Shown piece after piece: positions 4,264-56,703 of a stretch of 64,000 nucleotides of DNA. The stretch spans positions 24,873-88,872 of the forward strand of contig JASLWR010000004.1 in NCBI GenBank assembly GCA_030740765.1. Reading direction: 5' to 3'. Under the pieces are notes generated by a model, which was not told the origin of the DNA, did no database searches, and saw only the letters and a program-made list of their open reading frames with translations. The DNA comes from Thermoplasmatota archaeon (lineage in GTDB: Archaea; Thermoplasmatota; Penumbrarchaeia; JASLWR01). The number at the start of each line of letters is the position of its first letter. Positions within the stretch are counted from its first letter, which is position 1. Both the position numbers and the translations under genes were made by a program.

Positions 4264-7200
4264 CTAAATTGAATTGATTACCCCTTGCGTCTGGCATACC
4301 GGGCAGGTGACCAATGCCGGGAACTCGGCGATCTCCGCCATGTAATTATTGCCGCATGAATGACACTGCATCTGCAGGAATCCCCTTCGGTTACCGCCAC
4401 CGTCTGGTGGCGTAGGCCCGTTTACACTGCGCAACACCTTCGGCGTTGCTCCCCCCTCGGGAGCAAGCTCCCTACGGGGGAGAGGGGAAGCAGATTCTGC
4501 TTTTTCCTGAAGGAAGCTAGCTTCCGAAGGATGTAGCGGAGCGGAACGGTCTGCGGTCACCGAAGATGAAACCAACAGACCTGTCTGTTGGTGATTCATA
4601 GTTATCTCATTCGTCAATTGTGATGATGAGCCCTCCGGAGCCGGGGGAGCCATGTTTCCTTCCGGAACTGGCGGTGCGGCAGGCACCGTGGGTTCTTTAT
4701 ACATATCATCCAATGAAGAAAGATATGCATCGAGCTCGGACAGATCACTGGTCGGCGAAATACCTGCCGTGGGTGGACTAAGCCCAGCTGGGGCTTGGCT
4801 GGCAGTAGGGATCGAAGCCCCCTCCGGGGGGAACTGCGAGATTTCTCCCGGGGGAGATGAAGGTGATGGCGGTCCCGAAAAAAGCGTTCCCATGGCACCA
4901 ATGTCCGGTGAAGTGGGAGGGAGGACTGACAGATCGGGGCTTGTCATCGGGCTTGGTACCGCCGTATTAATAGTTGTTTGCTCTTCCATGGAAGCGGGTG
5001 CTGGAGGAAGTGCCATTCGTTCAAGATTTTGTACTCCCTGTTCGGTAGTGAATGAAGGAAGGGCATATGCCTGACCTGCCGTAAGATCGGTTCCTGGCCC
5101 CGTTTGATTGTAGAGAGGCTGTTGTGGTGCTTGAGCTTGACCTAATTGCGAAGAACCATACACGTCGGGTCCATGCGGGAGCAACGGGAGGGAGCCCTGT
5201 CCACCCGCCATCCCAACATATGGTGCCTGGAATTGGGGTGAGCCCCCGTATCCTTGCTGCCCGGGTGACATATACTGGCCCCGGGGATGGGGCAGCATAG
5301 CCTGCCCTTGTACTGAGTGCTGGATGGGTGCTTGGACGGATGGAGAAACCTCTTTTTCTTCTTTTTTCATTCTTTTTCTTACGATAAAAAATATTACCCC
5401 AATAAGTATGATCAGCAATAGAATTCCTCCGAGAATGAATAATAACAGTGAAGAATCTTTACTGAGAATACCCGCGGTTTCGGTTTCCACGATGTCTGGT
5501 TTACCGGGGGGACTATGGGCCCCATTATGGGGGTCGGTGCCTTTTTCACGCTCCAGACCGTCAGAGAAACCGTCCCCGTCGCTGTCGCGTTCATAATCGG
5601 CTGTAGCGCCCACCTCGATTTTAACTTTCTCGCTTACATTGTAACCGTGCCCGTCTGACACGAACAAGGTGATAGTATGTTTTCCTGGGGTCAGGATACC
5701 TCTCATTAGAACCTTTGAGCCGATTGAACGGTTCGCACTGACATTGGAGGACCAGTAATAGCTGAGATTGTCGCCGTCCTCATCACGTGATCCCGAGGCA
5801 TCAAAAAATATTTGACTGTCAAACCTGAAGTACACTCCCTGTTCGGGATCCGTGATTATCGCTTCAGGGCGGGAATTCACCCATACGCGGTACTCCCTAG
5901 ACTCATTGTAACCGGTACCCATCAGGTCGTCGGCGCGCCAGCGGATGAAATTTTCTTTTCCCCACTTGAATTCCACCTCCACCAGAACCTGTGCAGGATT
6001 TCCCGAAACCACGTTTTCCGCCTTTTTCCAGGGCCCAAAACTTTTACGGTCGCCCCCCGCCCCGTTCGCAACTGAATATTCAACCGTTGCCGGATCGACC
6101 CCTGAACCATCGTCCAGTATCTGGATGAAACATTCAACCGTCTCGCTGTCCCCGTACTCATCCCCGCCAGGTGTGAACGTCCCGAAATATACCGGAAAGG
6201 TATCAATTTTCAGATTGAATTTATCGGATAGGGTGAAGGGGTTGCCAACCACGTCCGTCCCACGGAACATAATGTAGTTATCTTTCCCTTCGGCATAACT
6301 GAATGTCACAGTGATTTCGTGTGTGTCTTCTCCAGCTTCAGTAATATTTTCGGGGTCAATCGGCATCCATTGGCCATAACTATTTTGACCCTCGGTGGAT
6401 ATCCTAGCTCCAAGGGTTGTAAGGTCCACTCCGCTTCCTGCGTCACTTACAGTGATAGTTGTGCTTATTTTATTTAGGTCGTACCATTCCTTTTGGGATG
6501 ATATCTCCTTGGCGAAATTGACCGGTGTAACGTCCACCTTCAAATTTACCGGAGAAGATTCAGCAAATCCGTTTCCCGAAATGTCCTTGGCACGCCATTT
6601 TATGTAATTGTCCTCTCCCTCAGGGAAGATGTATTTTACACTCGGAATTATAAGGTTTCCTCCTTCCGCGACCCATGCAGGTATCCATAGATCGGAACCC
6701 AGCCCCAGGCCTACTGAAACCGAGTATTCGATGGTACTGCCGTCGACTCCCGCTCCATCTCCGTCGTAGACCTCCACCGAGCAATCGATATCCGTGTGAT
6801 TGTGCCAAGAACCGTCCATGGGAGTATGGTTTGAAAAGACCGGCGCCGTCAGATCAACCAGTATGCTCGATGTGGCGGCCTCCCCAATGTTTCCCACCTT
6901 GTCCACGCACCACACGTAAATCTCAGCTTCTCCCTCGGTCAGCTTATCGATCTTGACCTCCGTATCATTGGTTAATGTCCCGTTAGTGGTTCCTGAATCG
7001 TCCATCTGGGAATAATAATATCCAAGGAGACCAGAAGCAGGGTCCTCAACGGCATCCCAGGTAACGTACATCTCGGGCTGATCCGTATTCCCCGTCTCCT
7101 TGTCCTTGAAACCTCCGGCGTGGCATATAAGATTGACCGGATACAGGGGTGCCTCAGCATCGATCTTCACGGGGAAGGTCAGATTAGTCATGCATATACC

Positions 7201-33474: not shown

Positions 33475-34338
33475 TCACGCAAGCTCTTCAGCCAATAACG
33501 CAGGAATTTCACCAGGTGTCGCTGCAACCCTGACATTCGCTTTTGACAGGGCTTCGATCTTTGCGCGGGCAGAACCCGTGCCTCTGGATATTATGGCGCC
33601 GGCATGTCCCATGGTCTTGCCCTTTGGGGCGGCCCGACCGGCAATATAGGCGATAACTGGTTTCGTTATATGTCCTTTTATGAACTCGGCCGCCTCTTCC
33701 TCGGCACTGCCCCCTATCTCGCCGATCAACACTATCCCTCTGGTATCCGGGTCTCTCTCGAAACGCACCAGCAGGTCGATGAAATTCAGTCCTACAATGG
33801 GGTCCCCCCCTAAGCCTATAGCAGTTGATTGACCCATGCCCGCTTTGCTTAGATCATCCACTATTTCATAGGTAAGGGTCCCGCTCCGTGAGATAAGACC
33901 GATGGTTCCCGGACAGAATACATGCGATGGCATTACACCCATCTTGCATTTTCCCGGACTTATGATTCCAGGAGTGTTCGGACCTATCACAACGATATTT
34001 TTTTTACTCGCTCGATGAACTATCTCCAGAGAATCATGTATGGGGATGTGTTCAGTAATAACAACAACCGGGTCCAAACCAAATTCGATGGCCTCGAGGG
34101 CAGCGTCTCTTGCAAAGGGCGCAGGGACGAAGATGATGGACGCCGTGGGTTTTTCCGGAATCTCATCGAATGAATCGTATACATTAATTTCTCCCACCTT
34201 TTCTCCGCCCTTTCCCGGCGTCACCCCTGCCACGACATTTGTTCCGTATTCGATCAATCTTTCGGTGTGAAACCTCCCTTGGCCTCCTGTGATCCCCTGA
34301 ACAACCACTTTCGTAGAATCGTCGATTATTATTGACAT
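33475..34338 (-). CDS. sucD: Succinyl-CoA synthetase alpha subunit
   Basis: VVVQGITGGQGRFHTERLIEYGTNVVAGVTPGKGG; active-site His region GHAGAIISRGTGSA. Confidence 0.9.
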   Translation of the reverse strand: MSIIIDDSTKVVVQGITGGQGRFHTERLIEYGTNVVAGVTPGKGGEKVGEINVYDSFDEIPEKPTASIIFVPAPFARDAALEAIEFGLDPVVVITEHIPIHDSLEIVHRASKKNIVVIGPNTPGIISPGKCKMGVMPSHVFCPGTIGLISRSGTLTYEIVDDLSKAGMGQSTAIGLGGDPIVGLNFIDLLVRFERDPDTRGIVLIGEIGGSAEEEAAEFIKGHITKPVIAYIAGRAAPKGKTMGHAGAIISRGTGSARAKIEALSKANVRVAATPGEIPALLAEELA

Positions 34339-35484
34339 CTATAAACCCTCCCTGTATGCTTTGGCCTGTTCCACCGCGTTTTTCGCTGAGTCTTCCATGT
34401 TTTCGTAAACATGATAACCATTATCGGTCAAAATCTTCTTGCCTTCTTCCTCATTGGTACCCATCATGCGTACCGAAATTGGTATCCCTGGTGCAGTATC
34501 CACGATGCCGCGTGCTATCTCATCGCACTTCGTGATGCCGCCAAAGATATTGATGAAAATGGATCTCACGTCTGGTTTTTTCAATACTATACTTAAGGCC
34601 TTGGCCATATTCCTTGCATTGGCGCCTCCGCCCACATCCAGGAAATTGGCAGGCTCGCCGTTAAACTGTTTAAGGATATCCAAAGAGGCCATGACGAGAC
34701 CCGCGCCGCAGCCGATTATCCCGATATCGCCAGGTAGATCCACGTATGCCAATCCCGCTTCCCGGGCTTCTTTTTCGAGATCGGTGAACTCTTCGCTGGT
34801 TTTTCCTTCTGAGCTGAATTCAGGGTGACGGAAAAGTGCATTATTATCGATATTCAGGACTGCGTCCACTGCAATAACATTACCGTCGTCCGTGAGGATC
34901 AGGGGATTTATTTCGGCCAATTCCCCATCGTAGGCCCTGAATACGTCATAAAGTTTCACAGTAATTGCGGCAACCTTCAACATTTTCTTTCCGGCGAGTC
35001 CGATCTGCTTACTGAGTTTACGGGCGTGATATTGTTGAAAACCGACTTCCGGATCGATGTCGAACCTGGCGATGGCCCCGGGATTTTCTCGCGCTACTTC
35101 TTCGATATCCACACCTCCCCTGGAGGACAGAATACAGGTGAAACTTCTTGACTTGCGGTTTACAGTAAATCCCACGTACAGCTCTCTCGCATGGATCAGG
35201 TCTGCCTTTTCTTCGATCAAAAGTTGTCGGACAGCGTGTCCTTTTAGTTCCATTCCAAGCAATTCGGGGATTATCCTCCTGGCCTCATTCATGGATTCGG
35301 CAAATCTTATCCCGCCTGCCTTGCCCCGGCCGCCAACCAGGACCTGGGCTTTCAGGGCTACCGGAAATTCAAGCTCTTTATGTATGGCTTCGCCTTCGTT
35401 TTCATTATCGATAACGATACTCTTGGGTACCGGTATCCCGAATTGTGAAAATATTTCCTTTGCCCTGTATTCATGTAATTTCAT
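34339..35484 (-). CDS. sucC: Succinyl-CoA synthetase beta subunit
   Basis: MKLHEYRAKEIFSQFGIPVPKS; ATP-grasp plus CoA-ligase domains; abuts sucD with no spacer. Confidence 0.9.
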   Translation of the reverse strand: MKLHEYRAKEIFSQFGIPVPKSIVIDNENEGEAIHKELEFPVALKAQVLVGGRGKAGGIRFAESMNEARRIIPELLGMELKGHAVRQLLIEEKADLIHARELYVGFTVNRKSRSFTCILSSRGGVDIEEVARENPGAIARFDIDPEVGFQQYHARKLSKQIGLAGKKMLKVAAITVKLYDVFRAYDGELAEINPLILTDDGNVIAVDAVLNIDNNALFRHPEFSSEGKTSEEFTDLEKEAREAGLAYVDLPGDIGIIGCGAGLVMASLDILKQFNGEPANFLDVGGGANARNMAKALSIVLKKPDVRSIFINIFGGITKCDEIARGIVDTAPGIPISVRMMGTNEEEGKKILTDNGYHVYENMEDSAKNAVEQAKAYREGL

Positions 35485-36308
35485 ATATAGGTGCTCCTGT
35501 AGAGTATACGAACTAGGTCATGTTTTTTCGTGAGCCCTTTGGTGTCTTTATATAATTCGTTCACCAATCCAAGATATTTTGAATCCCTAAGTTTCTTGAA
35601 GAGTTCTTTGGCCTCTTCCCCAGTTAGTGTTGGAGTGGGTTCTGGCAATGATATTTCAATCAGTGGTAGAAGAAATGGGATAATCGTTATTTATTTTTTT
35701 CTTGGATTTAAATAAAACCGGCCGATTTTCATTGATGGCAACATTGATAGGATGTTGTCAAAATGGTGTTAGCGGTATGGCAGGGGGAAAGAAACTTACC
35801 CTCAAAATTTACATAATCTAATGTCAAAATAATGCAATAGTTTTCATACTTGGAATCAAAACCGCCAATCGATCGGCCAAACAAGGATACTCACTTTCGA
35901 CTGTACGGACCTTTCCTCCTCTGGCCGATCTTTTACGACAATCGTCCAATAGCTTGACGGTATGCCATACTGACCACAATAATTCCTCATATTGTTCCCG
36001 GTATAATGCCTCATAAGCGACCTGCTTGTAATGAAGAAGGAGACTGTTCCTCTCGCCTACCCATCCTTCCTTTTTTATCGACGCACCCCTGGGCGCATTA
36101 GACGAACTGCACAGGGAGAAATTGCTCACCAACCTCGAGTGGTTAGGCTCCCAGGTCATGCTTGCCGTGACCGACGCGGAACTGCCCGATGACCTTGTCA
36201 AGAAATTCTTCAGCGTGAACCTTGCCGCCCATTACCAACTGGATTACGACCAGCGGACCGGACTATCGTCTGCGAAACGCCTTGATAAACCGCTTGGAGG
36301 GTAGAAAT

Positions 36309-36758
36309 ATGAGTAAGGGATCGGATAAGGATGCGTTGGAATCTCTCGGTGGAATGGACTTTTTCCTTAATCCTATGCTTAAAGAGAGATACAAGGAAGC
36401 AAAAGAACGCTTGATGGGAACCGATATGATCACAACTTATAAACTGGGGTGGGCTGTAGGGTTTATAAACCAAGACAATGAAGATGTGTCTGAAATTCCC
36501 TTAACTCATCGGTGGAGAGCATTGGATCGTCCATGCCTCAGAGATAAACACGGTTTGGGAGCACTCCTTTCCCTGGTCCCAGAAATCGAAAAAATTGCCT
36601 GTGGAGGTAAACCCGATGAAGCGCGAGACAGAATGGATGGAATAGCCCAGGCGGGCCTGAGGCGAATCCTTGACTGGCTGGAAGACCCGCGCCATGAGGA
36701 GCGGGATATTTTCGATTTTCTTTATCAGGAGATACAGCGGCAAGAGGAGGGGGTATAA
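36309..36758 (+). CDS. Hypothetical ~150-aa protein, first gene of an uncharacterised three-gene cassette. The track ORF starts earlier at an alternative TTG.
   Basis: ATG at 36309 is preceded by ggaggg. No recognisable domain. Its stop overlaps the next start by 1 nt (taATG). Confidence 0.55.
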   Translation: MSKGSDKDALESLGGMDFFLNPMLKERYKEAKERLMGTDMITTYKLGWAVGFINQDNEDVSEIPLTHRWRALDRPCLRDKHGLGALLSLVPEIEKIACGGKPDEARDRMDGIAQAGLRRILDWLEDPRHEERDIFDFLYQEIQRQEEGV

Positions 36759-37213
36759 TGGTAAATTTTGGGGAAGCAAGAAGCTTCACAATAAGTCCAG
36801 AAGGCCATTTAACCATGAAACGGATCACAGAATTAAGCAATTTTAACGACGGAAAGAAAGTTTTTCAGAGATTAGACATATACTTTGCTGCTGCTGCTTG
36901 GGGCATCGCGAATCGAAGTGATGGAAAAGTGACAAAAATACGGGGCAAAGGATACGACATAAGCCAAATAGACCCCAACGGCCTTTTCCAGCTCGTCCTT
37001 GAGAATTTACACCCAGAGATCCAGGACGACGTAGCGGAACTGAAGAAAGCATTTGAGGAATATGCCGAGGCCGGCCTCAAGCACTTTTCCGAAGTGGTCC
37101 ATAGTGAAGTGGATCTGCTCGACTTAATGATGCCTGAAACGTCGAAAAAAAGCCGGGAGGAACAACTCACGGCAAATCTCAGACGGTCCATTGACGAGCT
37201 TCTTGAGGAGTAA
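36758..37213 (+). CDS. Hypothetical 151-aa protein, second gene of the cassette
   Basis: Translationally coupled to the upstream gene; no recognisable domain. Confidence 0.55.
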   Translation: MVNFGEARSFTISPEGHLTMKRITELSNFNDGKKVFQRLDIYFAAAAWGIANRSDGKVTKIRGKGYDISQIDPNGLFQLVLENLHPEIQDDVAELKKAFEEYAEAGLKHFSEVVHSEVDLLDLMMPETSKKSREEQLTANLRRSIDELLEE

Positions 37214-37215
37214 CT

Positions 37216-38628
37216 ATGAAAACACGAGAGTTGGAACCCTGGGAAAAAAAGTTGATCGAGCACTACCCGGGCGTCATATTCGACAAGAGCCTTGTGGACA
37301 TGGACCTCGACAGCCAGGTCCCGCGCTATGTGAGCGAGTATTTGCTCCAGAGATTCCATAAAAGAACCAGGGCCAAGAAGGCTCATAGGAATTTCCGCCG
37401 CTTTATAGAACGGTTTCTCCCGGAACCGCGGGAGCGCCATGCTGTAATTCACCGCCTAACACAAGAGGGCTCGTTGAGAGCAATAGACCACTATAAGGTC
37501 GAGGTAAATGTGAAAACAGGCGTACATTTGGTTCATATCCCCCGGCTTGGTATACATGACGCCCGTATCGACCCTGATCTCGCAGGCGACTATGAACGGC
37601 TTTTAATAGATGGCATCTGGGGCATGGGCCACCTCGTCTGGGATGGTGAAAATGTCTTCGTAGAGAAATTCGTTCCCATCCAGGTCCAGGGCATCGACCT
37701 TCCGGCCTTCATCGAAGGACGGCGTTACTTCACCACCGAAGAGTGGATAAAGGTGCTGGTGAGCTCGCTCGGTCTCAATCCCGATGCATATACGCCCCGC
37801 CAACGTCTTATATTATTAGCACGTATGATCCCTCTCGTCGAGGACCGCGCGAATATCATGGAGCTGGCGCCTACGCAGACTGGGAAGACACATCTCTACA
37901 TCCATATTTCCTATCACGCCACACTTATCTCGGCGGGTACAGTGACCCCCGCTTACCTTTTCGGGAGCAACGTCGGGTACGGCTGCGAGGGCCTTCTCGC
38001 CCGTACTGACTGTATTGTTTTCGATGAGATCACGAACACGCGGCCCGCCAACCCTCAGGAGTTGATAGGAAAACTGAAGAATTACTTGGAGAGCGGGCAC
38101 TATGACAGGGGCAAGGTTCGAGGTCAATCAACAGCTAGCTTCGTATTCCAGGGGAACTATGACTCCGTTGACCCGAACACGATGCGGCCGTCTTCGCCGT
38201 ATCATCTCTCCTGCCTGCCGGCGGAATTCGAGGATTCGGCTCTGCTTGACCGCTTTCATGGGTATCTTTCGGGTTGGGATATGCCCAAGATCCACCCTGG
38301 AGCAATCAGCCGTTCCTATGGATTTATCTCGGATTACCTCTGCGAGGTACTGCATCAGTTCAAAAGAAGGAGTTACATGGATATCGTTACGAAGCGCCTC
38401 GATATCACGGCAGACGGGGCTAAAATAACGCTGCGGGACGTCAGATCTATCCGGAAACTTACTGCGGGATTCGTGAAACTTCTTTTTCCGAATGGCGAGT
38501 TCACGGACGGGGAACTCATAATGGTTGCGGAACTTGCCGCAGAGTTCAGACTGAACATGCTCGGACAGTTGAATCTGCGCGATCGAGGCAATTTTCCCAG
38601 TAAGGAACTGGTGGTTAGTGTGACATGA
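37216..38628 (+). CDS. AAA+-type P-loop NTPase (470 aa), third gene of the cassette
   Basis: Walker A ELAPTQTGKTH at about residue 210. Walker B CIVFDEITN about 55 aa later. Sensor-1-like FVFQGNYD. Arg-finger candidate LLDRFHG. The ~200-aa N-terminal domain is of unknown function. Confidence 0.7.
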   Translation: MKTRELEPWEKKLIEHYPGVIFDKSLVDMDLDSQVPRYVSEYLLQRFHKRTRAKKAHRNFRRFIERFLPEPRERHAVIHRLTQEGSLRAIDHYKVEVNVKTGVHLVHIPRLGIHDARIDPDLAGDYERLLIDGIWGMGHLVWDGENVFVEKFVPIQVQGIDLPAFIEGRRYFTTEEWIKVLVSSLGLNPDAYTPRQRLILLARMIPLVEDRANIMELAPTQTGKTHLYIHISYHATLISAGTVTPAYLFGSNVGYGCEGLLARTDCIVFDEITNTRPANPQELIGKLKNYLESGHYDRGKVRGQSTASFVFQGNYDSVDPNTMRPSSPYHLSCLPAEFEDSALLDRFHGYLSGWDMPKIHPGAISRSYGFISDYLCEVLHQFKRRSYMDIVTKRLDITADGAKITLRDVRSIRKLTAGFVKLLFPNGEFTDGELIMVAELAAEFRLNMLGQLNLRDRGNFPSKELVVSVT

Positions 38629-38807
38629 GGGAGCGCTGAAGATGGGTCGGTTCAAAGGGAAGTTCCAGCCATCCCGTGAATTAATCAGAGTTACTTGAAG
38701 GATTGTTTGATGCCCTAGAAGAAGTTTATATAGACCGGAAATATTGGAAACAGGTAACCGGATGAAAACTTTTATTGGTTTAAAGTGGTATCACGCGGGC
38801 CGATCAT

Positions 38808-39677
38808 ATGTCCGAGCACATAAAAAAAGCTACTCTTGAGTTGCTAAGAAGAGCTGCGACAACGCTGCCCTCTGACATCATGAACACTCTCGCGCGGGCC
38901 TATGAGAACGAAGAATCCGACGCTGCAAAGATGAACCTGAAAGTGATCCTTGATAACGTCAGGATAGCCGGGGAACAATCTTTACCCATGTGCCAGGATA
39001 CGGGCGCGCCAATCTTTTGGATTCATTATCCCAGGTCATATTCTCAGGCTGAGTTACGCAGAAAGATGAACGAAGCCGTGCGAGTTGCTTCCCAAATTCC
39101 ATATCTCCGGCCCAACGCAGTCGATTCCATCACTGGCAAGAATTCCGGGGATAATATCGGTGCAGGCGTTCCGGTATATCATTTCGAAGAATGGGATGAG
39201 AATTATCTGAAGGTTGAACTGATGCTGAAGGGCGGTGGCTCCGAAAACGTTTCTCCCCAGTACAAGTTACCCGATTCATCCCTAGGAGGGGGTCGGAACC
39301 TTGAAGGAGTAAGAAGATGCGTTATCGATGCGGTATTCAAGGCACAGGGATTGGGCTGTGCTCCGGGAGTGATCGGGGTGGCCATCGGCGGGAACCGGGA
39401 CACCGCGTATGCAGCGGCAAAAAAAGCTCTTATGCGGCCTTTCGATGATCAGAATTCCATGCCTGAATTGAACGAACTGGAGCAACGATTATTGAAAGAA
39501 TTGAACGAGCTGGGCATAGGCCCCATGGGCTTTGGTGGAAAGACAACCGTTCTCGCAGTCAAGGCCGTAGCTTTGCACAGGTTGCCCGCCTGTTTCTTCG
39601 TGTCCATCGCATATAACTGTTGGGCTCTTCGCCGCCAGACCATGATCATCAAGGGAGGTGAGGTAAGTTATGACTGA
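38808..39677 (+). CDS. fumA: Class I (Fe-S) fumarate hydratase, alpha subunit
   Basis: 289-aa N-terminal catalytic domain of the split FumA/TtdA family (QDTGAPIFWIHYP, GGGSENVS). Confidence 0.85.
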   Translation: MSEHIKKATLELLRRAATTLPSDIMNTLARAYENEESDAAKMNLKVILDNVRIAGEQSLPMCQDTGAPIFWIHYPRSYSQAELRRKMNEAVRVASQIPYLRPNAVDSITGKNSGDNIGAGVPVYHFEEWDENYLKVELMLKGGGSENVSPQYKLPDSSLGGGRNLEGVRRCVIDAVFKAQGLGCAPGVIGVAIGGNRDTAYAAAKKALMRPFDDQNSMPELNELEQRLLKELNELGIGPMGFGGKTTVLAVKAVALHRLPACFFVSIAYNCWALRRQTMIIKGGEVSYD

Positions 39678-40248
39678 GCTAAGATTACCCACCGATGAAG
39701 CTACCATTAGAGAGCTGAATGTAGGCGATTTCGTCGAGATAACCGGAGTCATGTTCACTGGTCGGGATTCGGCACACTCATTTTTGATGGAAAAGGAACG
39801 AGAAAAATTCAAAGAATTGCTGGAAGGCAGAATAATATATCATTGCGGACCCGTTGTAAAAAAAGTGGATGGTGAATGGAAATTCATATCCGCCGGACCC
39901 ACCACGAGTATCCGTGAAGAGCCGTTCCAGGCCGACGTTTTCAAACGGTACGGTCTCAGAGGCGCACTGGGAAAGGGCGGAATGGGGAAAAAGACCATTG
40001 CCGGATGCAAGGAGTTCGGTGCAGTCTACCTGCATGCCGTGGGCGGTGCCGGAGCGCTGGCGGCGGCCTCGGTAAAACGAGTTAAGAACGTGTATATGCT
40101 CGAGGAATTCGGCGTGCCCGAGGCTTTTTGGGAGATCGAGGTGGAGCGTTTCCCCGCAGTAGTGACGATAGATTCCAAGGGTCGGAGCCTTCACGAGAAA
40201 GTCAGAGCAGATTCCGAAGTGATCTATAAGAAATTGATCGGGATGTAG
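39670..40248 (+). CDS. fumB: Class I fumarate hydratase, beta subunit
   Basis: 192-aa TtdB/FumB-like protein (GRIIYHCGPV, LGKGGMGKKT); overlaps fumA by 8 nt. Confidence 0.85.
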   Translation: MTELRLPTDEATIRELNVGDFVEITGVMFTGRDSAHSFLMEKEREKFKELLEGRIIYHCGPVVKKVDGEWKFISAGPTTSIREEPFQADVFKRYGLRGALGKGGMGKKTIAGCKEFGAVYLHAVGGAGALAAASVKRVKNVYMLEEFGVPEAFWEIEVERFPAVVTIDSKGRSLHEKVRADSEVIYKKLIGM

Positions 40249-52446: not shown

Positions 52447-55400
52447 TCAATCGAGAATTATGTGCCCATCCCCTTGAGGTACCATCTCAGTTGCCCGGAA
52501 ACCTACCTCCTCTGCCAAACTCTCCAGTTCCAGGTCTCCCAGGATCACTGGTTCTACCTGATCCAGTGCTTCAGGGGTGCCGATGGATATTAGAGCCTTC
52601 AGCGCAGCCCTACGATCTTCCATCTCCACCGAACTTTTCAACATCTTAACAAGAGAGGGAACAACCCGTTCGTCTTTCATTTCTCCGAGTACTTTCAATA
52701 CTATCGGCCGCGTTCCCTTTGGTACCGTGAAAAGAACGTTCGCCAGGGCCGGAGCCGTGTAGCTGTTTGCGATATGCTTCAACCTGCTAAGCGTGACCTC
52801 TGCCTCCCCCCTAGACTGGTACATTAGATTGTCAAGGTTGGGTTTAGTAATGTGCTCGAACACACATTCCTTTAAGGGAGAGCGGGCAATACGCTGTAAC
52901 AGGAACCATTTTATGTCATGGTCGTAAAGATCGCTCAATAGCACTTTTGATCTCGTAGATATGCAGGCACTGGATATTACTTTCCCGGGAATAGTATTAT
53001 CAAAGAACGAATCCAAATCCGTATCCGATACAAATTTTTTAACATATTTCGGTTCCATCTCCACCAACATCATGACCAACCCCTTGAAGGTGTTGACAGA
53101 CCTTTTTCCAGGGAGGATGATCTCACTTTTTTTCTCTGCAAACTGCCTGAGAATTTCTTTAACTGAAATGGTGGAACTTACTGCCAGTCTCCATTGCTGC
53201 TCCATGTGATCAGTTCTATTGTCGTTTGAGCCGGTACTGGCTTTTCCCGCCGGCGATCTTTCAGGTATGACTACCCGTTTTTCAGAATTGGACTTTTTCA
53301 CTCCTGGCATTTCCAGAAGTAGCTTCATATAAACTGACAAGACCCTTGCAGCGGTGACAGGATGATTGCTCGCTTCGGCCAAAAGCCCCAGGGGTCGCTC
53401 CATCAATATCTCGTGTATTTCGCGAGATGTTGTGAAGCGTATGTTGTGGGAGACAACGTTTCTCATCTTTAGAAAACCACCCTTCACCGCCACCTCGGAC
53501 AGCCTATAAACGTCGGAATCCTTTAAAATGTCGTAGAGTTTCCTCTTATGCATGCCTAAGTCCTTGGCAATATCCTCAAGAAGCAGTTCCTTTTCCACCT
53601 TTTTTCCCATTGACTCCTTATAAAGGTCCGCATAACGTCCGGGCCTTATCATTGCGTCGGTGATATGTTTGATTATCGTCCTGTCAGGGAGATTCCTTCG
53701 AACATCCTTTGAGGGGTATTTTTTGATCTTGATATCTGAAATTATCTCGTCTTTCTCTCCTGGGCTCTTCATTGTCCCCTTCTTGACTTTCCCCCCCGGC
53801 GATCCGAAGGCTGCCGTATTCTCCCGGGTGATGAGGTTCCCACTTTTCGGATGTGCGAGAATGGTGATCTCAGGTAACTGCTCAGGTAAGGATGAAGGGA
53901 GCTCGATCCTTATGGGGATATCATTTTTGCCCGGCTCCAGCCGAAATCCCTCTATGATGTTAATTTCCCCATATGCCTTTGAAGAGGGCCAGTGAACCCT
54001 GTACTCTTTTCCGGGCAGAATTACGGTAAAATCCACTAATACGTCCTTTTTCGCATCACAGTTGGCCGTGACGGGTATCTCAAGGAGCGTCCCTTCTGCT
54101 CCCTCAGCTTGATCATAATCAAGATCTAACTGAATGTTTTTTCGAAATTCTGCAACTGTCTTCCGGACCTTCATATTCTTTTTGTAATCCCCCAGAAATC
54201 TCAGGGTCTCATTAAGTATCCTGGTGTGGTTATTGATGTTGTTACGAAACCCGTCTCGCAACCATTTGCATGCCTTTTCCAACCTGTTCTCTTGTGACCT
54301 CATCACACGACCAAGTGTGGAAAAGAACAGATATAGATGAAGATAAGCCATATTGAAATTGTATATGTGGGCCGCCAATCCCTCTGGCTTCATCTTGCCC
54401 GGCAAGGAAAAATCACGAATACCCCGTGATACCTTATTCATAAAATACACTGACATGAGACCGAATACCATTGGATAGATTTTCTTGTAATCAGGAACAT
54501 ACTCAGGGCCGCCTGATTCCATTTTTTCTAAAATTTTATCTTTCAATATCCCCGAATCTAGCTGCCTAATGAAAAAATCCATGTCTTTATTGAAGAATGA
54601 AGTGTAATCCAGGTCCAGTTGTTTGATCCTCTCTGTTGCCATCTCAGTATTTTTCACAGACCTGTTGCTTTTTTTTATTCTATCATCGTAAGGGGCAAAG
54701 TGTTCGATCAGGTTTGACGAATCACCATCGCCTATCTTACAGTTTTTCATTATTCTTTTCACAAGATTGTCCATTACAAAGGCATCGGACTTTGCCTTTT
54801 TCGCAAACACCAGCCTTTTCTTGCCCTTGGGCATGCTTTCGACCCTTTTCTTTAATGCTCTTGTGTAACCTTTAATTAAATTCGATGTATAACGGCCGGG
54901 TGTTTCCAATTCTGGTCCGTTTTTACCCAGAGCTTGCAAGGAAGAAGTGTCCTCCATATATGAGCTTATAATGCTTTCAACGAGGAACGTCACTCGGCTG
55001 ATATTCTTTGCATGCTCCTCAAGATAATTTCTGTCGAATCCCATGTTCGCCGCCGTTCTAGCGAGGACAGTAGAATTTAATTTATTCATTTCGTCCGGTT
55101 CAATCAGCACCTTTCCAAGGTGCAAGTTCAAATAAGTACCATTATTCAGCTTGAGAGTAGTAAAATCCTTCTCATTTACGGCTTCAGCCACCTTTTCTCC
55201 ATAGAACAGGTAATTTCCGATTTCCCTTTTAAGGTCCGCCGATAGTCCACTAGCAATCTTCTTGGGAATAATTTCCTTTTCAAGTTTTACCGAAAACTGC
55301 CGGGCCCCCTTTATCAAGAACATGTACGGAAGCCTGAAAACGCTTAGGGGAGTCTTTTCCAGATCGATGTATATTTCAAAGCTTACGTTGACATACCCCG

Positions 55401-56703
55401 AAGGCATTTTATCATCAAGGCGTATCACCCACTCCACTTCTCCCCTTTCTTGAGCTTCCTCCCGGTTTACGTCCAAAACTTCCACCGAAGTGCCCACCCC
55501 CTTTCCTTTTATCGTTTCTGCGGTGATTCTCGCAGTAAATTTCTCATCAATCAACCGGCCTCCGGTCTTGTAAAGGGCGATAAGGTGTACGGATTCTCCG
55601 GGACAATAAGAATATTTATCCGTTGTGGCACCGAAAAATTCGATATCCATGCCGCCTGTTACCTCGATAGCGCCTTTCTCCGTTGCCTCAACATCACCAG
55701 ATATCTCAAAAAATAGCTCATAACTACCTTGGAGTAATTCTTGTGTATCCTCAACGAGAAATTGGTATTCTTTCGGAACAATTTCTCTAGCAGAGTTTGG
55801 CTCCAATGTTATTTTACCCAATGGGATCGAACATATGTCGTTATCGTTTTTTCGAAAGTGAAGTCTTGTTGAAAGATCGAGTATTTCGATGCCTGTGTTA
55901 CTGATCCCCGCCGTGACCGTCAACATGCCACCCGGGAGAATCGAACGGGGACTGATATCAAGCATTGAGAGTGAAATATCATATTTACTCGCAATGAAAA
56001 AAACATTTTCAAAACATTTTGAAGTTTTAACGCTGTAATGACATAGAAATATCTCAACCCCCATTTCACCCTTTTCTTCGATATCTGAGATATTCGCCAG
56101 AAATGTTTCCGTATGCTCTCCCGAAAAAGTTACTCTTTTTTTATCGAAATGATGTAACTTCTTGCCGTTTACATCGAAAATATTACCCCAAATATCGACC
56201 GAACTCTCTTTTCCGGAAGCCTCGAGGATGATATTCATCTCTGCAGGCTTACCCGGTATTACTCTGTAATTGTTAGCCTCAACCCCTTTGATAGAGATAT
56301 CTGGCGGAGTGTATGAGAAAGTTTTTAACATTTCGGGAAGGATCGATGTGTAGTAAACGCCATGTTTCAGAATAACCTTCAACTCGTGCTCATCGGTATC
56401 GGAGAACGTTGGCTCCAGACTCATCCTATGTTTGAATTCCTTCGTTTCTGGTACTACGATATATTTTTCGATCGATTTTACCGGGCCAACACAACTGATC
56501 TCAATTTTTTGTGTAACTTCGTTTTCAGGAAGAGACAATAAAATATCGATGGTGATGGGTTCTCCCGGAGATCCCGTTGAAAGTTTCACATCCCCCGTAA
56601 TTTCAGGTTTTGCGCTCTTCGTGAAAATATCCAGGTTGATTACAATTTCTTCGGCCCCTTTTCCCTTTCGCATGACCTCATTCCCTTTTACCCTAAATAT
56701 CAC
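52447..56703 (-). CDS. Giant cytoplasmic protein (1418 aa) with C-terminal HEAT / PBS-lyase-like repeats and an internal HTH-like segment; function unknown
   Basis: HEAT-like repeats LGEMKDERVVPSLVKMLKSSVEMEDRRAALKALISIGTPEAL. No TM segment or signal peptide. Convergent with the upstream wHTH regulator gene. Confidence 0.7.
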   Translation of the reverse strand: MIFRVKGNEVMRKGKGAEEIVINLDIFTKSAKPEITGDVKLSTGSPGEPITIDILLSLPENEVTQKIEISCVGPVKSIEKYIVVPETKEFKHRMSLEPTFSDTDEHELKVILKHGVYYTSILPEMLKTFSYTPPDISIKGVEANNYRVIPGKPAEMNIILEASGKESSVDIWGNIFDVNGKKLHHFDKKRVTFSGEHTETFLANISDIEEKGEMGVEIFLCHYSVKTSKCFENVFFIASKYDISLSMLDISPRSILPGGMLTVTAGISNTGIEILDLSTRLHFRKNDNDICSIPLGKITLEPNSAREIVPKEYQFLVEDTQELLQGSYELFFEISGDVEATEKGAIEVTGGMDIEFFGATTDKYSYCPGESVHLIALYKTGGRLIDEKFTARITAETIKGKGVGTSVEVLDVNREEAQERGEVEWVIRLDDKMPSGYVNVSFEIYIDLEKTPLSVFRLPYMFLIKGARQFSVKLEKEIIPKKIASGLSADLKREIGNYLFYGEKVAEAVNEKDFTTLKLNNGTYLNLHLGKVLIEPDEMNKLNSTVLARTAANMGFDRNYLEEHAKNISRVTFLVESIISSYMEDTSSLQALGKNGPELETPGRYTSNLIKGYTRALKKRVESMPKGKKRLVFAKKAKSDAFVMDNLVKRIMKNCKIGDGDSSNLIEHFAPYDDRIKKSNRSVKNTEMATERIKQLDLDYTSFFNKDMDFFIRQLDSGILKDKILEKMESGGPEYVPDYKKIYPMVFGLMSVYFMNKVSRGIRDFSLPGKMKPEGLAAHIYNFNMAYLHLYLFFSTLGRVMRSQENRLEKACKWLRDGFRNNINNHTRILNETLRFLGDYKKNMKVRKTVAEFRKNIQLDLDYDQAEGAEGTLLEIPVTANCDAKKDVLVDFTVILPGKEYRVHWPSSKAYGEINIIEGFRLEPGKNDIPIRIELPSSLPEQLPEITILAHPKSGNLITRENTAAFGSPGGKVKKGTMKSPGEKDEIISDIKIKKYPSKDVRRNLPDRTIIKHITDAMIRPGRYADLYKESMGKKVEKELLLEDIAKDLGMHKRKLYDILKDSDVYRLSEVAVKGGFLKMRNVVSHNIRFTTSREIHEILMERPLGLLAEASNHPVTAARVLSVYMKLLLEMPGVKKSNSEKRVVIPERSPAGKASTGSNDNRTDHMEQQWRLAVSSTISVKEILRQFAEKKSEIILPGKRSVNTFKGLVMMLVEMEPKYVKKFVSDTDLDSFFDNTIPGKVISSACISTRSKVLLSDLYDHDIKWFLLQRIARSPLKECVFEHITKPNLDNLMYQSRGEAEVTLSRLKHIANSYTAPALANVLFTVPKGTRPIVLKVLGEMKDERVVPSLVKMLKSSVEMEDRRAALKALISIGTPEALDQVEPVILGDLELESLAEEVGFRATEMVPQGDGHIILD

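What the first reader, a model, noticed from the sequence alone, without database searches (positions are those of the whole stretch)
36122..38628. Uncharacterised three-gene cassette (two ~150-aa proteins plus an AAA+ ATPase) inserted between sucCD and fumAB
The otherwise contiguous TCA and carboxylase gene block is interrupted by a co-directional, translationally coupled operon (1-nt stop/start overlap, then a 2-nt gap).
- Two small proteins have no recognisable motifs.
- The third is a 470-aa P-loop NTPase with Walker A ELAPTQTGKTH, Walker B CIVFDEITN, a sensor-1-like FQGNYD and an Arg-finger-like LLDRFHG, behind a ~200-aa N-terminal domain.
- The cassette is preceded by an ~800-nt mostly non-coding spacer.

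The combination of small accessory proteins plus a divergent AAA+ ATPase, and its island-like placement, is typical of defence or stress modules. I cannot match it to a named system such as BREX BrxL, Septu or Gabija.
Basis: partly seen in the sequence, partly recalled or inferred. Interest (0 to 1): 0.7.

Follow-up and report, generated by a model that had tools for sequence, protein, structure and literature searches.

The report
Decapitated DndD–BrxL defence-like operon remnant
The three genes are real, but they are what a recent 2.2-kb deletion left of a five-gene operon that pairs a phosphorothioation-type DNA-scanning ATPase with a short BREX-type BrxL ring ATPase, a pairing I did not find described.

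Summary
The interpretation needs three corrections.

1. The 470-aa ATPase is not unmatchable. It is a short BrxL: TIGR02688 scores 412 bits against a cutoff of 329. It has Pfam BrxL_N plus BrxL_ATPase, matches residues 10-455 of solved BrxL 8EMC, and lacks the Lon-like C-terminal domain.

2. The cassette is not a self-contained triad. Three related Thermoplasmatota contigs carry, at the same sucCD/fumAB site, a five-gene operon:
- a small protein of 65-82 aa;
- a 659-aa DndD/PbeC-family ABC ATPase;
- g1, g2 and BrxL.

The window lost about 2.2 kb at a TTTTTA microhomology. That removed the promoter, the small gene and the first ~581 codons of the ATPase. The "~800-nt spacer" is the scar. An independent 99.9 % identical contig spans the junction.

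3. g2 is a divergent PbeD/TIGR04062-type partner of such ATPases. g1 is an orphan.

None of 85 other short-BrxL loci carries a DndD-like gene, and two recent surveys do not describe the pairing.

Most likely this is a new variant of the DndD/PbeC–DndE-type conflict systems that uses BrxL as its motor, and it is probably disabled in this genome. No function was tested.

The parts
35824..36080 (-). C-terminal ~85 codons of a divergently transcribed 156-aa gene ('m156', possibly the operon's regulator). Its 5' half is deleted.
   Evidence: blastn aligns window 35708-36080 to L007 4582-4953 at 85 %. The translated fragment aligns with the C-terminal half of L007's 156-aa protein. The intact gene is called in L001, L002 and L007.
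36072..36077 (.). Deletion junction: TTTTTA microhomology shared by the two breakpoints. About 2.2 kb (L007 4954-7159) is missing here.
   Evidence: The window sequence follows L007 up to 4953, then resumes at 7160. Both L007 and L001 carry TTTTTA at both breakpoints. The independent contig L093 is 99.9 % identical across 35901-37805 and so spans the junction.
36074..36304 (+). 3' tail of a dndD/pbeC-like ABC ATPase gene (last ~77 codons plus the stop at 36302-36304). It holds the Walker B/D-loop region FFIDAPLGALDELHRE.
   Evidence: tblastn places L007's 659-aa ATPase residues 584-659 at 36074-36301, 97 % identical. Against L007, pS is 0.44 and pN 0.025, the same as between the intact genes, so the truncation is recent.
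36309..36758 (+). g1: 149-aa clade-specific protein with an all-helical prediction and no detectable family.
36758..37213 (+). g2: 151-aa divergent member of the PbeD / TIGR04062 family. Members of that family are the small DndE-type partners of DndD/PbeC ABC ATPases.
   Evidence: TIGR04062 is the top hit in all three orthologues (E 1.5e-4, 0.01, 0.037) on the same segment. hhalign against four PbeD-position proteins gives E 2.4e-5, score 35.9, versus shuffles of 12.1 +/- 2.5, with 0 of 100 shuffles reaching it. An exhaustive profile search of 1.84 billion representatives found only its own clade.
37216..38628 (+). Short BrxL: N-terminal DNA-binding region plus MCM-like AAA+ ATPase, with no Lon-like or HKD C-terminal domain.
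   Evidence: TIGR02688 scores 411.7 bits against a cutoff of 329.3. Pfam BrxL_N (15-141) and BrxL_ATPase (148-463) both match. PADLOC BrxL scores E 4e-98. 8EMC BrxL residues 10-455 of 679 align at E 1.4e-66. The catalytic columns are invariant. dN/dS is 0.06-0.09.

Best explanation
The locus is the 3' remnant of a five-gene operon that is intact in related Thermoplasmatota: a small protein, a DndD/PbeC-family coiled-coil ABC ATPase, g1, g2 and a short BrxL.

Shown:
- The gene identities.
- The deletion, which removed the TATA-box promoter, the small gene and ~88 % of the ABC ATPase gene.
- The recency of the deletion.
- The intactness of g1, g2 and brxL.

Inferred mechanism for the intact operon, by analogy with Pbe/Dnd and BREX. 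The ABC ATPase and the g2 DNA-binding partner scan or loop DNA and recognise a target. g1 would act as a clade-specific adaptor. They then load or license the BrxL ring, a DNA-encircling, DNA-stimulated ATPase related to the MCM helicase. BrxL blocks or unwinds replicating foreign DNA. No nuclease or modification enzyme is encoded in the operon.

In this genome the sensor ATPase and the native promoter are gone. The three surviving genes are therefore most likely a recently disabled remnant rather than a working three-gene system.
For: - BrxL identity.
- The full operon sits at the same sucCD/fumAB site in L001, L002 and L007, with SMC_N/AAA_23 on the 659-aa protein.
- That protein matches PADLOC DndD (197 bits) and PbeC (196 bits) end to end, and TIGR03185 DndD at 171 bits.
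- Deletion boundaries and microhomology. An independent assembly spans the junction.
- The tail is still under the same pN/pS as the intact genes.
- A conserved TATA box (AAATTATATATAAATCC) and a palindrome upstream of the small gene lie inside the deleted segment. No TATA-like motif lies within 600 nt upstream of g1 in the window.
- g2 belongs with PbeD-type proteins.
- Canonical Pbe-like loci have the same order, small protein / ABC ATPase / ~125-160-aa partner.
- BrxL biochemistry (DNA-bound hexamer rings, DNA-dependent ATPase, MCM homology, ATPase needed for restriction): PMC10164562.
- The role proposed for the DndD/CxC-DndE pair in DNA scanning: PMC10853773.
Against: - No experiment or expression data exist for any member.
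- The defence role rests on family associations only. The locus is not in a defence island and has no neighbouring mobile-element genes.
- No modification enzyme or nuclease is encoded in the operon, so how self and non-self would be told apart is unknown.
- g1, g2 and brxL show no relaxed selection in the window lineage. That fits a very recent deletion, but it also fits retained function.
- The PbeD assignment of g2 rests on weak similarity. The AF2 model of g2 was unusable (pLDDT 41), so the expected double ribbon-helix-helix fold was not verified.
- The operon is known only from a narrow clade of uncultured archaea.
Confidence: 0.62

Rival explanations
1. The triad g1-g2-BrxL is a functional stand-alone module. 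It would continue to work in this genome without the ABC ATPase, for instance with g2 targeting BrxL to DNA.
For: - All three ORFs are intact, each with a ribosome-binding site.
- Window-lineage substitutions in brxL are 33 synonymous to 7 non-synonymous. dN/dS in pairs that include the window is no higher than in the L007-L001 pair.
- At least one independent contig carries the same deleted form (L093). Three further 99.6-99.9 % identical contigs (L094-L096) cover the genes but not the junction.
Against: - Every more distant relative has the full five-gene operon.
- The deletion is recent: the orphaned ATPase tail still shows pN/pS 0.025/0.44. There has been no time for decay to show.
- The native promoter is deleted.
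- No triad without the ABC ATPase was found elsewhere.
- In Pbe, deleting pbeC abolishes protection (PMC6459918).
Confidence: 0.2
2. The intact operon is a housekeeping or chromosome-maintenance device rather than defence: an SMC-like ATPase with two small accessory subunits plus an MCM-like ring. Its site among TCA genes would reflect vertical inheritance.
For: - It occupies the same chromosomal site in genomes whose SucC proteins are only ~73 % identical.
- The locus encodes no nuclease, methylase, integrase or tRNA gene.
- The ATPase also gives weak hits to archaeal SMC-related protein and Rad50 models.
Against: - Distribution is extremely narrow. g1 and g2 are absent outside one clade in exhaustive searches.
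- The ATPase is dispensable, since it is deleted here.
- The best matches are the defence-associated DndD, PbeC and BrxL models.
- The operon's large genes are far less diverged than the flanking housekeeping genes (dS 0.4-0.55 against >=1.0). That indicates recent lateral exchange.
Confidence: 0.1
3. It is a decayed type-4 (or type-1) BREX locus from which brxC, pglZ and brxP were lost.
For: TIGR02688-type short BrxL is the form found in type-4 BREX (PMC12839542).
Against: - No PglZ, BrxC, BrxP or PglX similarity exists in the window or in the intact relatives, whose operon is bounded by sucC and fumA.
- The gene directly upstream in relatives is an ABC ATPase of the DndD/PbeC family, not an ORC/Cdc6-type BrxC.
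Confidence: 0.03

Closest known systems
Short BrxL of type-4 BREX (NCBIfam TIGR02688; Pfam BrxL_N + BrxL_ATPase)
   Same: Same domain architecture and length (~470 aa), with no C-terminal Lon-like or HKD domain. It scores above the curated family cutoff, all catalytic columns are conserved, and it sits last in its operon.
   Different: Identity to any other short BrxL is only 31-40 %. Its partners are a DndD/PbeC-type ABC ATPase and two small proteins, not BrxP, DUF4007, BrxC and PglZ.
Acinetobacter type-1 BrxL (PDB 8EMC/8EMH; Shen et al. 2023, PMC10164562)
   Same: The proteins align over residues 10-452 versus 10-455 at E 1.4e-66. By homology, g3 is expected to form DNA-encircling rings with DNA-stimulated ATPase activity.
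   Different: g3 lacks the ~220-residue C-terminal Lon-like domain of the 679-aa protein. Oligomeric state and DNA binding have not been tested for the short form.
PbeABCD / CxC-ABC-ATPase-DndE systems (Xiong et al. 2019, PMC6459918; re-annotated in PMC10853773)
   Same: The core order is the same: small protein, then a ~650-aa coiled-coil ABC ATPase with overlapping stop/start, then a ~125-160-aa partner. The ATPase matches PbeC models end to end. g2 matches the PbeD family.
   Different: - There is no PbeA helicase/HKD nuclease; a short BrxL stands at the other end of the operon instead.
- An extra orphan gene, g1, lies between the ATPase and g2.
- The ATPase has no CxC zinc hook and only one cysteine, at position 571.
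- The small protein is not detectably similar to PbeB-position proteins.
- No dnd or methylase genes are nearby.
DndD-DndE dyad of DndABCDE phosphorothioation systems
   Same: The ATPase matches DndD models over its full length and, like DndD, has no zinc hook. The 65-82-aa protein upstream resembles the C-terminal ~45 residues of DndC and overlaps the ATPase start by 4 nt, as dndC does.
   Different: - It scores below the DndD equivalog cutoff (171 against 246 bits).
- No DndC catalytic domain, DndA or DndB is present.
- g2 does not match the DndE model TIGR03184: it was absent from the hit lists at E <= 1, and thin-profile hhalign against one DndE gave E 0.055.
- There is therefore no basis for predicting phosphorothioation.

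Membership tests
BrxL (short form, TIGR02688) | Whole-protein score above the curated NCBIfam cutoff | tested here: met
   411.7 bits against a cutoff of 329.3, covering residues 14-452 and profile positions 2-444 of 449.
BrxL (short form, TIGR02688) | BrxL_N domain followed by the BrxL AAA+ ATPase domain, with intact Walker A, Walker B, sensor-1 and Arg finger and no C-terminal Lon/HKD domain | tested here: met
   PF20442 spans 15-141 and PF13337 spans 148-463. The invariant columns are K224, D270/E271, N314 and R346. The protein ends at residue 470, whereas 8EMC has 679 residues.
BREX system (type 4 or type 1) | Co-located PglZ and BrxC, plus BrxP or PglX | tested here: not met
   tblastn with type-4 BrxP, DUF4007, BrxC and PglZ and with a PglX-like methylase finds nothing in the window. 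The intact relatives show none between sucC and fumA.
PbeABCD / CxC-ABC-ATPase system | PbeC: coiled-coil ABC ATPase with a CxC zinc hook at the coiled-coil apex | tested here: not met
   In the window only the last ~77 codons survive. In relatives the ATPase matches PbeC models (196 bits) but has a single Cys at 571 and no CxC. Three of the four PbeC-position comparators have CxC at ~336-341, and the fourth has CxxC at 336/339.
PbeABCD / CxC-ABC-ATPase system | PbeD: small DndE-type partner encoded next to the ATPase (TIGR04062) | tested here: inconclusive
   g2 hits TIGR04062 only below the cutoff (22 bits against 74.25). hhalign to four PbeD-position proteins gives E 2.4e-5, with 0 of 100 shuffles reaching the score. 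The fold was not verified. g1, not g2, is the gene adjacent to the ATPase.
PbeABCD / CxC-ABC-ATPase system | PbeA: SF2 helicase fused to an HKD nuclease | tested here: not met
   Absent from the window and from the intact operons.
PbeABCD / CxC-ABC-ATPase system | PbeB: small, rapidly evolving protein immediately upstream of the ATPase | tested here: inconclusive
   Relatives have a 65-82-aa gene in that position with a 4-nt overlap. It shows no similarity to PbeB-position proteins (hhalign E 0.16). It is deleted in the window.
DndABCDE phosphorothioation module | DndC PAPS-reductase-type sulfurtransferase and DndA/IscS cysteine desulfurase present | tested here: not met
   tblastn finds no DndC or DndA in the window. 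None is called in the relatives' loci. The only trace is a 45-residue resemblance of the small protein to the DndC C-terminus.
DndABCDE phosphorothioation module | DndD equivalog (TIGR03185) score above the cutoff | tested here: not met
   170.8 bits against a cutoff of 245.85 for L007's ATPase.
Anti-virus/plasmid defence system (generic) | Demonstrated protection against a mobile element | not testable with these tools
   The organisms are uncultured and no experimental data were found.

The most novel reading that the evidence does not exclude
The intact five-gene operon of the relatives is a previously undescribed defence system. A DndD-type ABC ATPase and its PbeD-like DNA-binding partner would recruit a short BrxL MCM-like ring, with no nuclease, PglZ or dedicated modification enzyme in the operon. 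BrxL would then be a portable 'replication-blocking' effector usable outside BREX. The hypervariable g1-g2 pair would act as the specificity module.
Probability: 0.3. Interest if true: 0.65.

Novelty: new variant of a known kind. Interest (0 to 1): 0.42.

Why it matters
BrxL is one of the least understood BREX components. [quoted passage not shown]

Here a short BrxL is wired to a different sensor, a DndD/PbeC-family ABC ATPase with a PbeD-like partner. In other archaea it sits behind at least three further kinds of partner: PglX-like methylases, a DUF1156 methylase operon, and a ~540-570-aa downstream gene.

That argues that BrxL is an interchangeable motor or effector module rather than a BREX-specific part. 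It also offers a minimal operon, with no PglZ, nuclease or methylase, in which BrxL's contribution could be isolated experimentally.

For this particular genome the result is more ordinary: the locus is a freshly truncated remnant. Its practical lesson for annotation is that the 'spacer' and the 'three-gene cassette' are products of a deletion.

Tried and rejected
- **g1 and g2 as paralogues.** This was my impression from reading the sequences. BLASTP gave E 2.7 and hhalign E 0.27, and 63 of 150 shuffles reached the score. Not supported.
- **g1 as a PbeD/DndE-like protein.** hhalign against one PbeD-position protein gave E 0.033, with 7 of 150 shuffles reaching it. Against four such proteins it gave E 0.34, with 39 of 100 shuffles. 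Not supported.
- **Structure route.**
  - The AF2 model of g2 has pLDDT 41 and is unusable.
  - The afdb50 library was unavailable.
  - PDB sequence searches with the g1 and g2 profiles found only chance-level hits.
- **Wider distribution.**
  - The exhaustive profile search for g2 found only its own clade.
  - None of 79 GTDB loci with short BrxL has a DndD-like gene, g1 or g2, by tblastn and phmmer.
  - Six further metagenome contexts gave the same result.
  - The metagenome scan with the DndD-like ATPase returned one ordinary Pbe-type locus without BrxL.
  - The viral contig scan returned none.
  - Plasmid tblastn returned canonical Dnd and Pbe loci only.
- **Viral families.** PHROGs gave nothing for g1 and g2, and nothing better than E 0.009 for the other three proteins tested.
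- **Type-4 BREX remnant.** Rejected.
- **Assembly artefact as the cause of the deletion.** Rejected, because an independent contig spans the junction.
Full report
**1. What is in the sequence**

Three co-directional ORFs occupy 36309-38628:
- g1, 36309-36758, 149 aa;
- g2, 36758-37213, 151 aa;
- g3, 37216-38628, 470 aa.

Each start is preceded by a GGAGG-like ribosome-binding site.

The stated start, 36122, is not gene 1. It opens a 60-codon ORF in a different frame that ends at 36304.

The flanks are as described. Upstream lie carboxyltransferase, biotin carboxylase, BCCP, malic enzyme and sucDC. Downstream lie fumAB and succinate-dehydrogenase-like genes.

The window matches a Candidatus Thermoplasmatota MAG at 100 % for g1 and g2.

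**2. The ATPase is a short BrxL**

- g3 scores 411.7 bits on NCBIfam TIGR02688, 'BREX system Lon protease-like protein BrxL', whose curated cutoff is 329.3.
- It carries Pfam BrxL_N (15-141) and BrxL_ATPase (148-463).
- It matches five PADLOC BrxL models, the best at E 4e-98.
- It aligns with solved Acinetobacter BrxL (8EMC) over residues 10-452 versus 10-455 of 679, at E 1.4e-66.
- It therefore lacks the C-terminal Lon-like domain. That is the form reported for type-4 BREX (PMC12839542).

**3. The cassette is a truncated operon**

g1 and g2 have only a handful of homologues, 3 and 5 respectively, in a database of 5.8 billion proteins.

The contigs that carry them (L001, L002, L007) show a five-gene operon. 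In L001 and L007, the contigs long enough to show the flanks, it sits downstream of sucCD, and in L007 it is followed by fumAB:
- a 65-82-aa gene;
- a 659-aa SMC_N/AAA_23 protein, whose start overlaps the small gene by 4 nt;
- g1, g2 and BrxL;
- in addition, a divergent 156-aa gene upstream.

blastn of the window against L007 aligns window ≤36080 with L007 ≤4953, and window ≥36069 with L007 ≥7160. Both breakpoints carry TTTTTA in L007 and in L001. About 2.2 kb was therefore lost through a microhomology.

The deleted segment contained:
- the 5' half of the 156-aa gene;
- the intergenic region;
- the small gene;
- the first ~581 codons of the ATPase gene.

The 36122 ORF is the ATPase tail, FFIDAPLGALDELHRE…, 97 % identical to L007 residues 584-659.

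An independently assembled contig from another dataset (L093) is 99.9 % identical across 35901-37805 and so spans the junction. The deletion is therefore not an assembly error.

The orphaned tail still shows pS 0.44 and pN 0.025 against L007. The two intact genes show the same values against each other (0.39 and 0.023). The deletion is therefore recent relative to the divergence of these lineages.

In relatives, a conserved TATA box (AAATTATATATAAATCC) and a palindrome (ACAACATTGTTGT) lie ~30 nt upstream of the small gene. Both are inside the deleted segment. The window has no TATA-like motif within 600 nt upstream of g1.

**4. What the lost and surviving parts are**

*The 659-aa ATPase.*
- It matches PADLOC DndD (197 bits) and PbeC (196 bits) models end to end.
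- It matches TIGR03185 DndD at 171 bits, below the 246-bit equivalog cutoff.
- It has a single cysteine and no CxC zinc hook. Three of the four PbeC-position comparators have CxC near residue 337-341, and the fourth has CxxC at 336/339.
- It is thus a DndD/PbeC-family coiled-coil ABC ATPase of the hook-less type.

*Canonical Pbe-like loci.* Loci fetched for comparison were Aurantiacibacter, Halorhabdus and Natrinema plasmids and one metagenome contig. They have the order helicase / small protein / ABC ATPase / 124-160-aa protein. Two of those partner proteins hit TIGR04062 at 5e-14 and 2e-10. That model therefore represents the PbeD position, which PMC10853773 equates with a DndE cognate.

*g2.*
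- In all three orthologues the top NCBIfam hit is TIGR04062, on the same segment, at E 1.5e-4, 0.01 and 0.037.
- Profile-profile comparison with four PbeD-position proteins gives E 2.4e-5 and score 35.9. Column-shuffled controls give 12.1 ± 2.5, and 0 of 100 reach the observed score.
- I accept g2 as a divergent PbeD-type partner. Its fold could not be checked, because the AF2 model has pLDDT 41.

*g1.*
- It has no detectable relative in Pfam, NCBIfam, PADLOC or PHROGs, or in PDB by sequence.
- My impression that g1 and g2 are paralogues failed the shuffle test.

*The small upstream protein.* It resembles the last ~45 residues of DndC in three orthologues. HMM E-values are 0.004-0.04, and 0 of 150 shuffles reach the hhalign score. 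This is a weak but consistent hint that the operon descends from a dndC-dndD-type arrangement.

**5. Is the combination known?**

I looked at 79 GTDB loci and six metagenome loci with short BrxL (31-40 % identical to g3). None contains a DndD-like gene, g1 or g2.

Their partners are instead:
- type-4 BREX genes;
- a PglX/Eco57I-like methylase;
- a DUF1156 methylase with a ~1090-aa protein;
- a ~540-570-aa downstream gene.

A metagenome scan with the ABC ATPase found one ordinary Pbe-type locus without BrxL. A viral scan found nothing.

Two comprehensive surveys were checked. The Dnd/Pbe reappraisal (PMC10853773) lists partner genes that do not include BrxL. The BREX landscape paper (PMC12839542) has no occurrence of DndD or DndE and calls BrxL specific to types 1 and 4. 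I did not check their supplementary tables.

**6. Evolutionary signals**

- All three surviving genes are under purifying selection. dN/dS is 0.06-0.09 for brxL and 0.13-0.24 for g1 and g2. There is no excess in the window lineage.
- The two large ATPase genes are much less diverged between lineages than the flanking housekeeping genes:
  - brxL dS is 0.39-0.55, against ≥1.0 or saturation for sucC, sucD, malic enzyme and fumAB;
  - DNA identity between L007 and L001 is 83-93 % for the operon's large genes, against 66-77 % for sucDC.
- The g1-g2 pair in the middle is as diverged as the flanks, at 69-81 %.
- This mosaic suggests recent lateral exchange of the operon between related genomes, with a hypervariable small-gene pair. 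That fits a conflict system better than a housekeeping one.

**7. Mechanism**

*Shown:* the gene identities, the operon structure, the deletion and the loss of the promoter.

*Taken from the literature on homologues:*
- BrxL forms DNA-encircling rings with DNA-dependent ATPase activity. It is structurally related to MCM, and its ATPase site is needed for phage restriction (PMC10164562).
- DndD/CxC-ABC ATPases with their DndE-type partners are proposed to scan or loop DNA and recognise sites (PMC10853773).
- Pbe blocks viral DNA replication without visible DNA degradation, and it needs pbeB, pbeC and pbeD (PMC6459918).

*My inference:* in the intact operon, the ABC ATPase and g2, with g1 as a clade-specific adaptor, recognise target DNA and load or license BrxL, which blocks or unwinds it. 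In the window the sensor and the promoter are missing, so the triad is most likely a recently disabled remnant.

*Unexplained:* how self DNA would be spared, since no modification enzyme is encoded in the operon.

**8. Verdict**

It misses the BrxL identity and the truncation.

The window's locus itself is a pseudo-operon of modest interest. The intact ancestor is a new variant of known kinds, a DndD/PbeC-DndE-type core combined with BREX-type BrxL. It is narrowly distributed and untested.

Noticed in passing
window 33475-40248; L007 2361-9731 versus L001: Divergence is mosaic. brxL and the dndD-like gene are far less diverged between lineages (dS 0.39-0.55; 83-93 % DNA identity) than the flanking sucDC, malic and fumAB genes (dS >=1 or saturated; 66-77 %). 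The g1-g2 pair between them is as diverged as the flanks (69-81 %). This suggests recent lateral exchange of the operon, with a hypervariable small-gene pair.
   Followed up: partly
L011-L013, L014-L092, L102-L104: Short BrxL (TIGR02688 type) sits beside at least four different partner sets.
- Last gene of type-4 BREX.
- Last gene after a PglX/Eco57I-like methylase, as a two-gene unit (for example Saccharolobus shibatae B12).
- In an operon of a DUF1156 methylase and a ~1090-aa protein, followed by ~272-aa and ~170-aa genes.
- Followed by a ~540-570-aa gene; one example gave a PepSY hit.

[quoted passage not shown]
   Followed up: partly
L007 5160-5212; L001 6250-6324 (deleted in the window): A conserved palindrome, ACAACATTGTTGT, lies next to a TATA box between the divergent 156-aa gene and the small gene. 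It is a candidate operator for the 156-aa protein, which has no family match.
   Followed up: no
L007 5213-5419; L001 6325-6522; L002 916-1164: The 65-82-aa protein that precedes the ABC ATPase resembles the C-terminal ~45 residues of DndC (positions ~410-460). Like dndC, it overlaps the ATPase start by 4 nt. It may be a vestige or a mimic of the DndC tail.
   Followed up: partly
window 35481-35648 (-): A 55-aa ORF overlaps the sucC start codon by 4 nt. Much of this stretch (35516-35635) has no DNA match in L007, so the ORF is probably spurious.
   Followed up: no
window 4264-24347 and 52447-56703: Five very large ORFs of 1409-1959 aa were not examined.
   Followed up: no
L008-L010 versus L007: In these contigs g1 is called as a 114-aa protein (P0003) starting at Met36 of the 149-aa form, with a 110-nt gap after the ATPase gene. 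P0003 matches the L007 g1 sequence from Met36 onward in the alignment, which suggests a gene-calling difference rather than a real truncation. I did not compare the upstream DNA.
   Followed up: no
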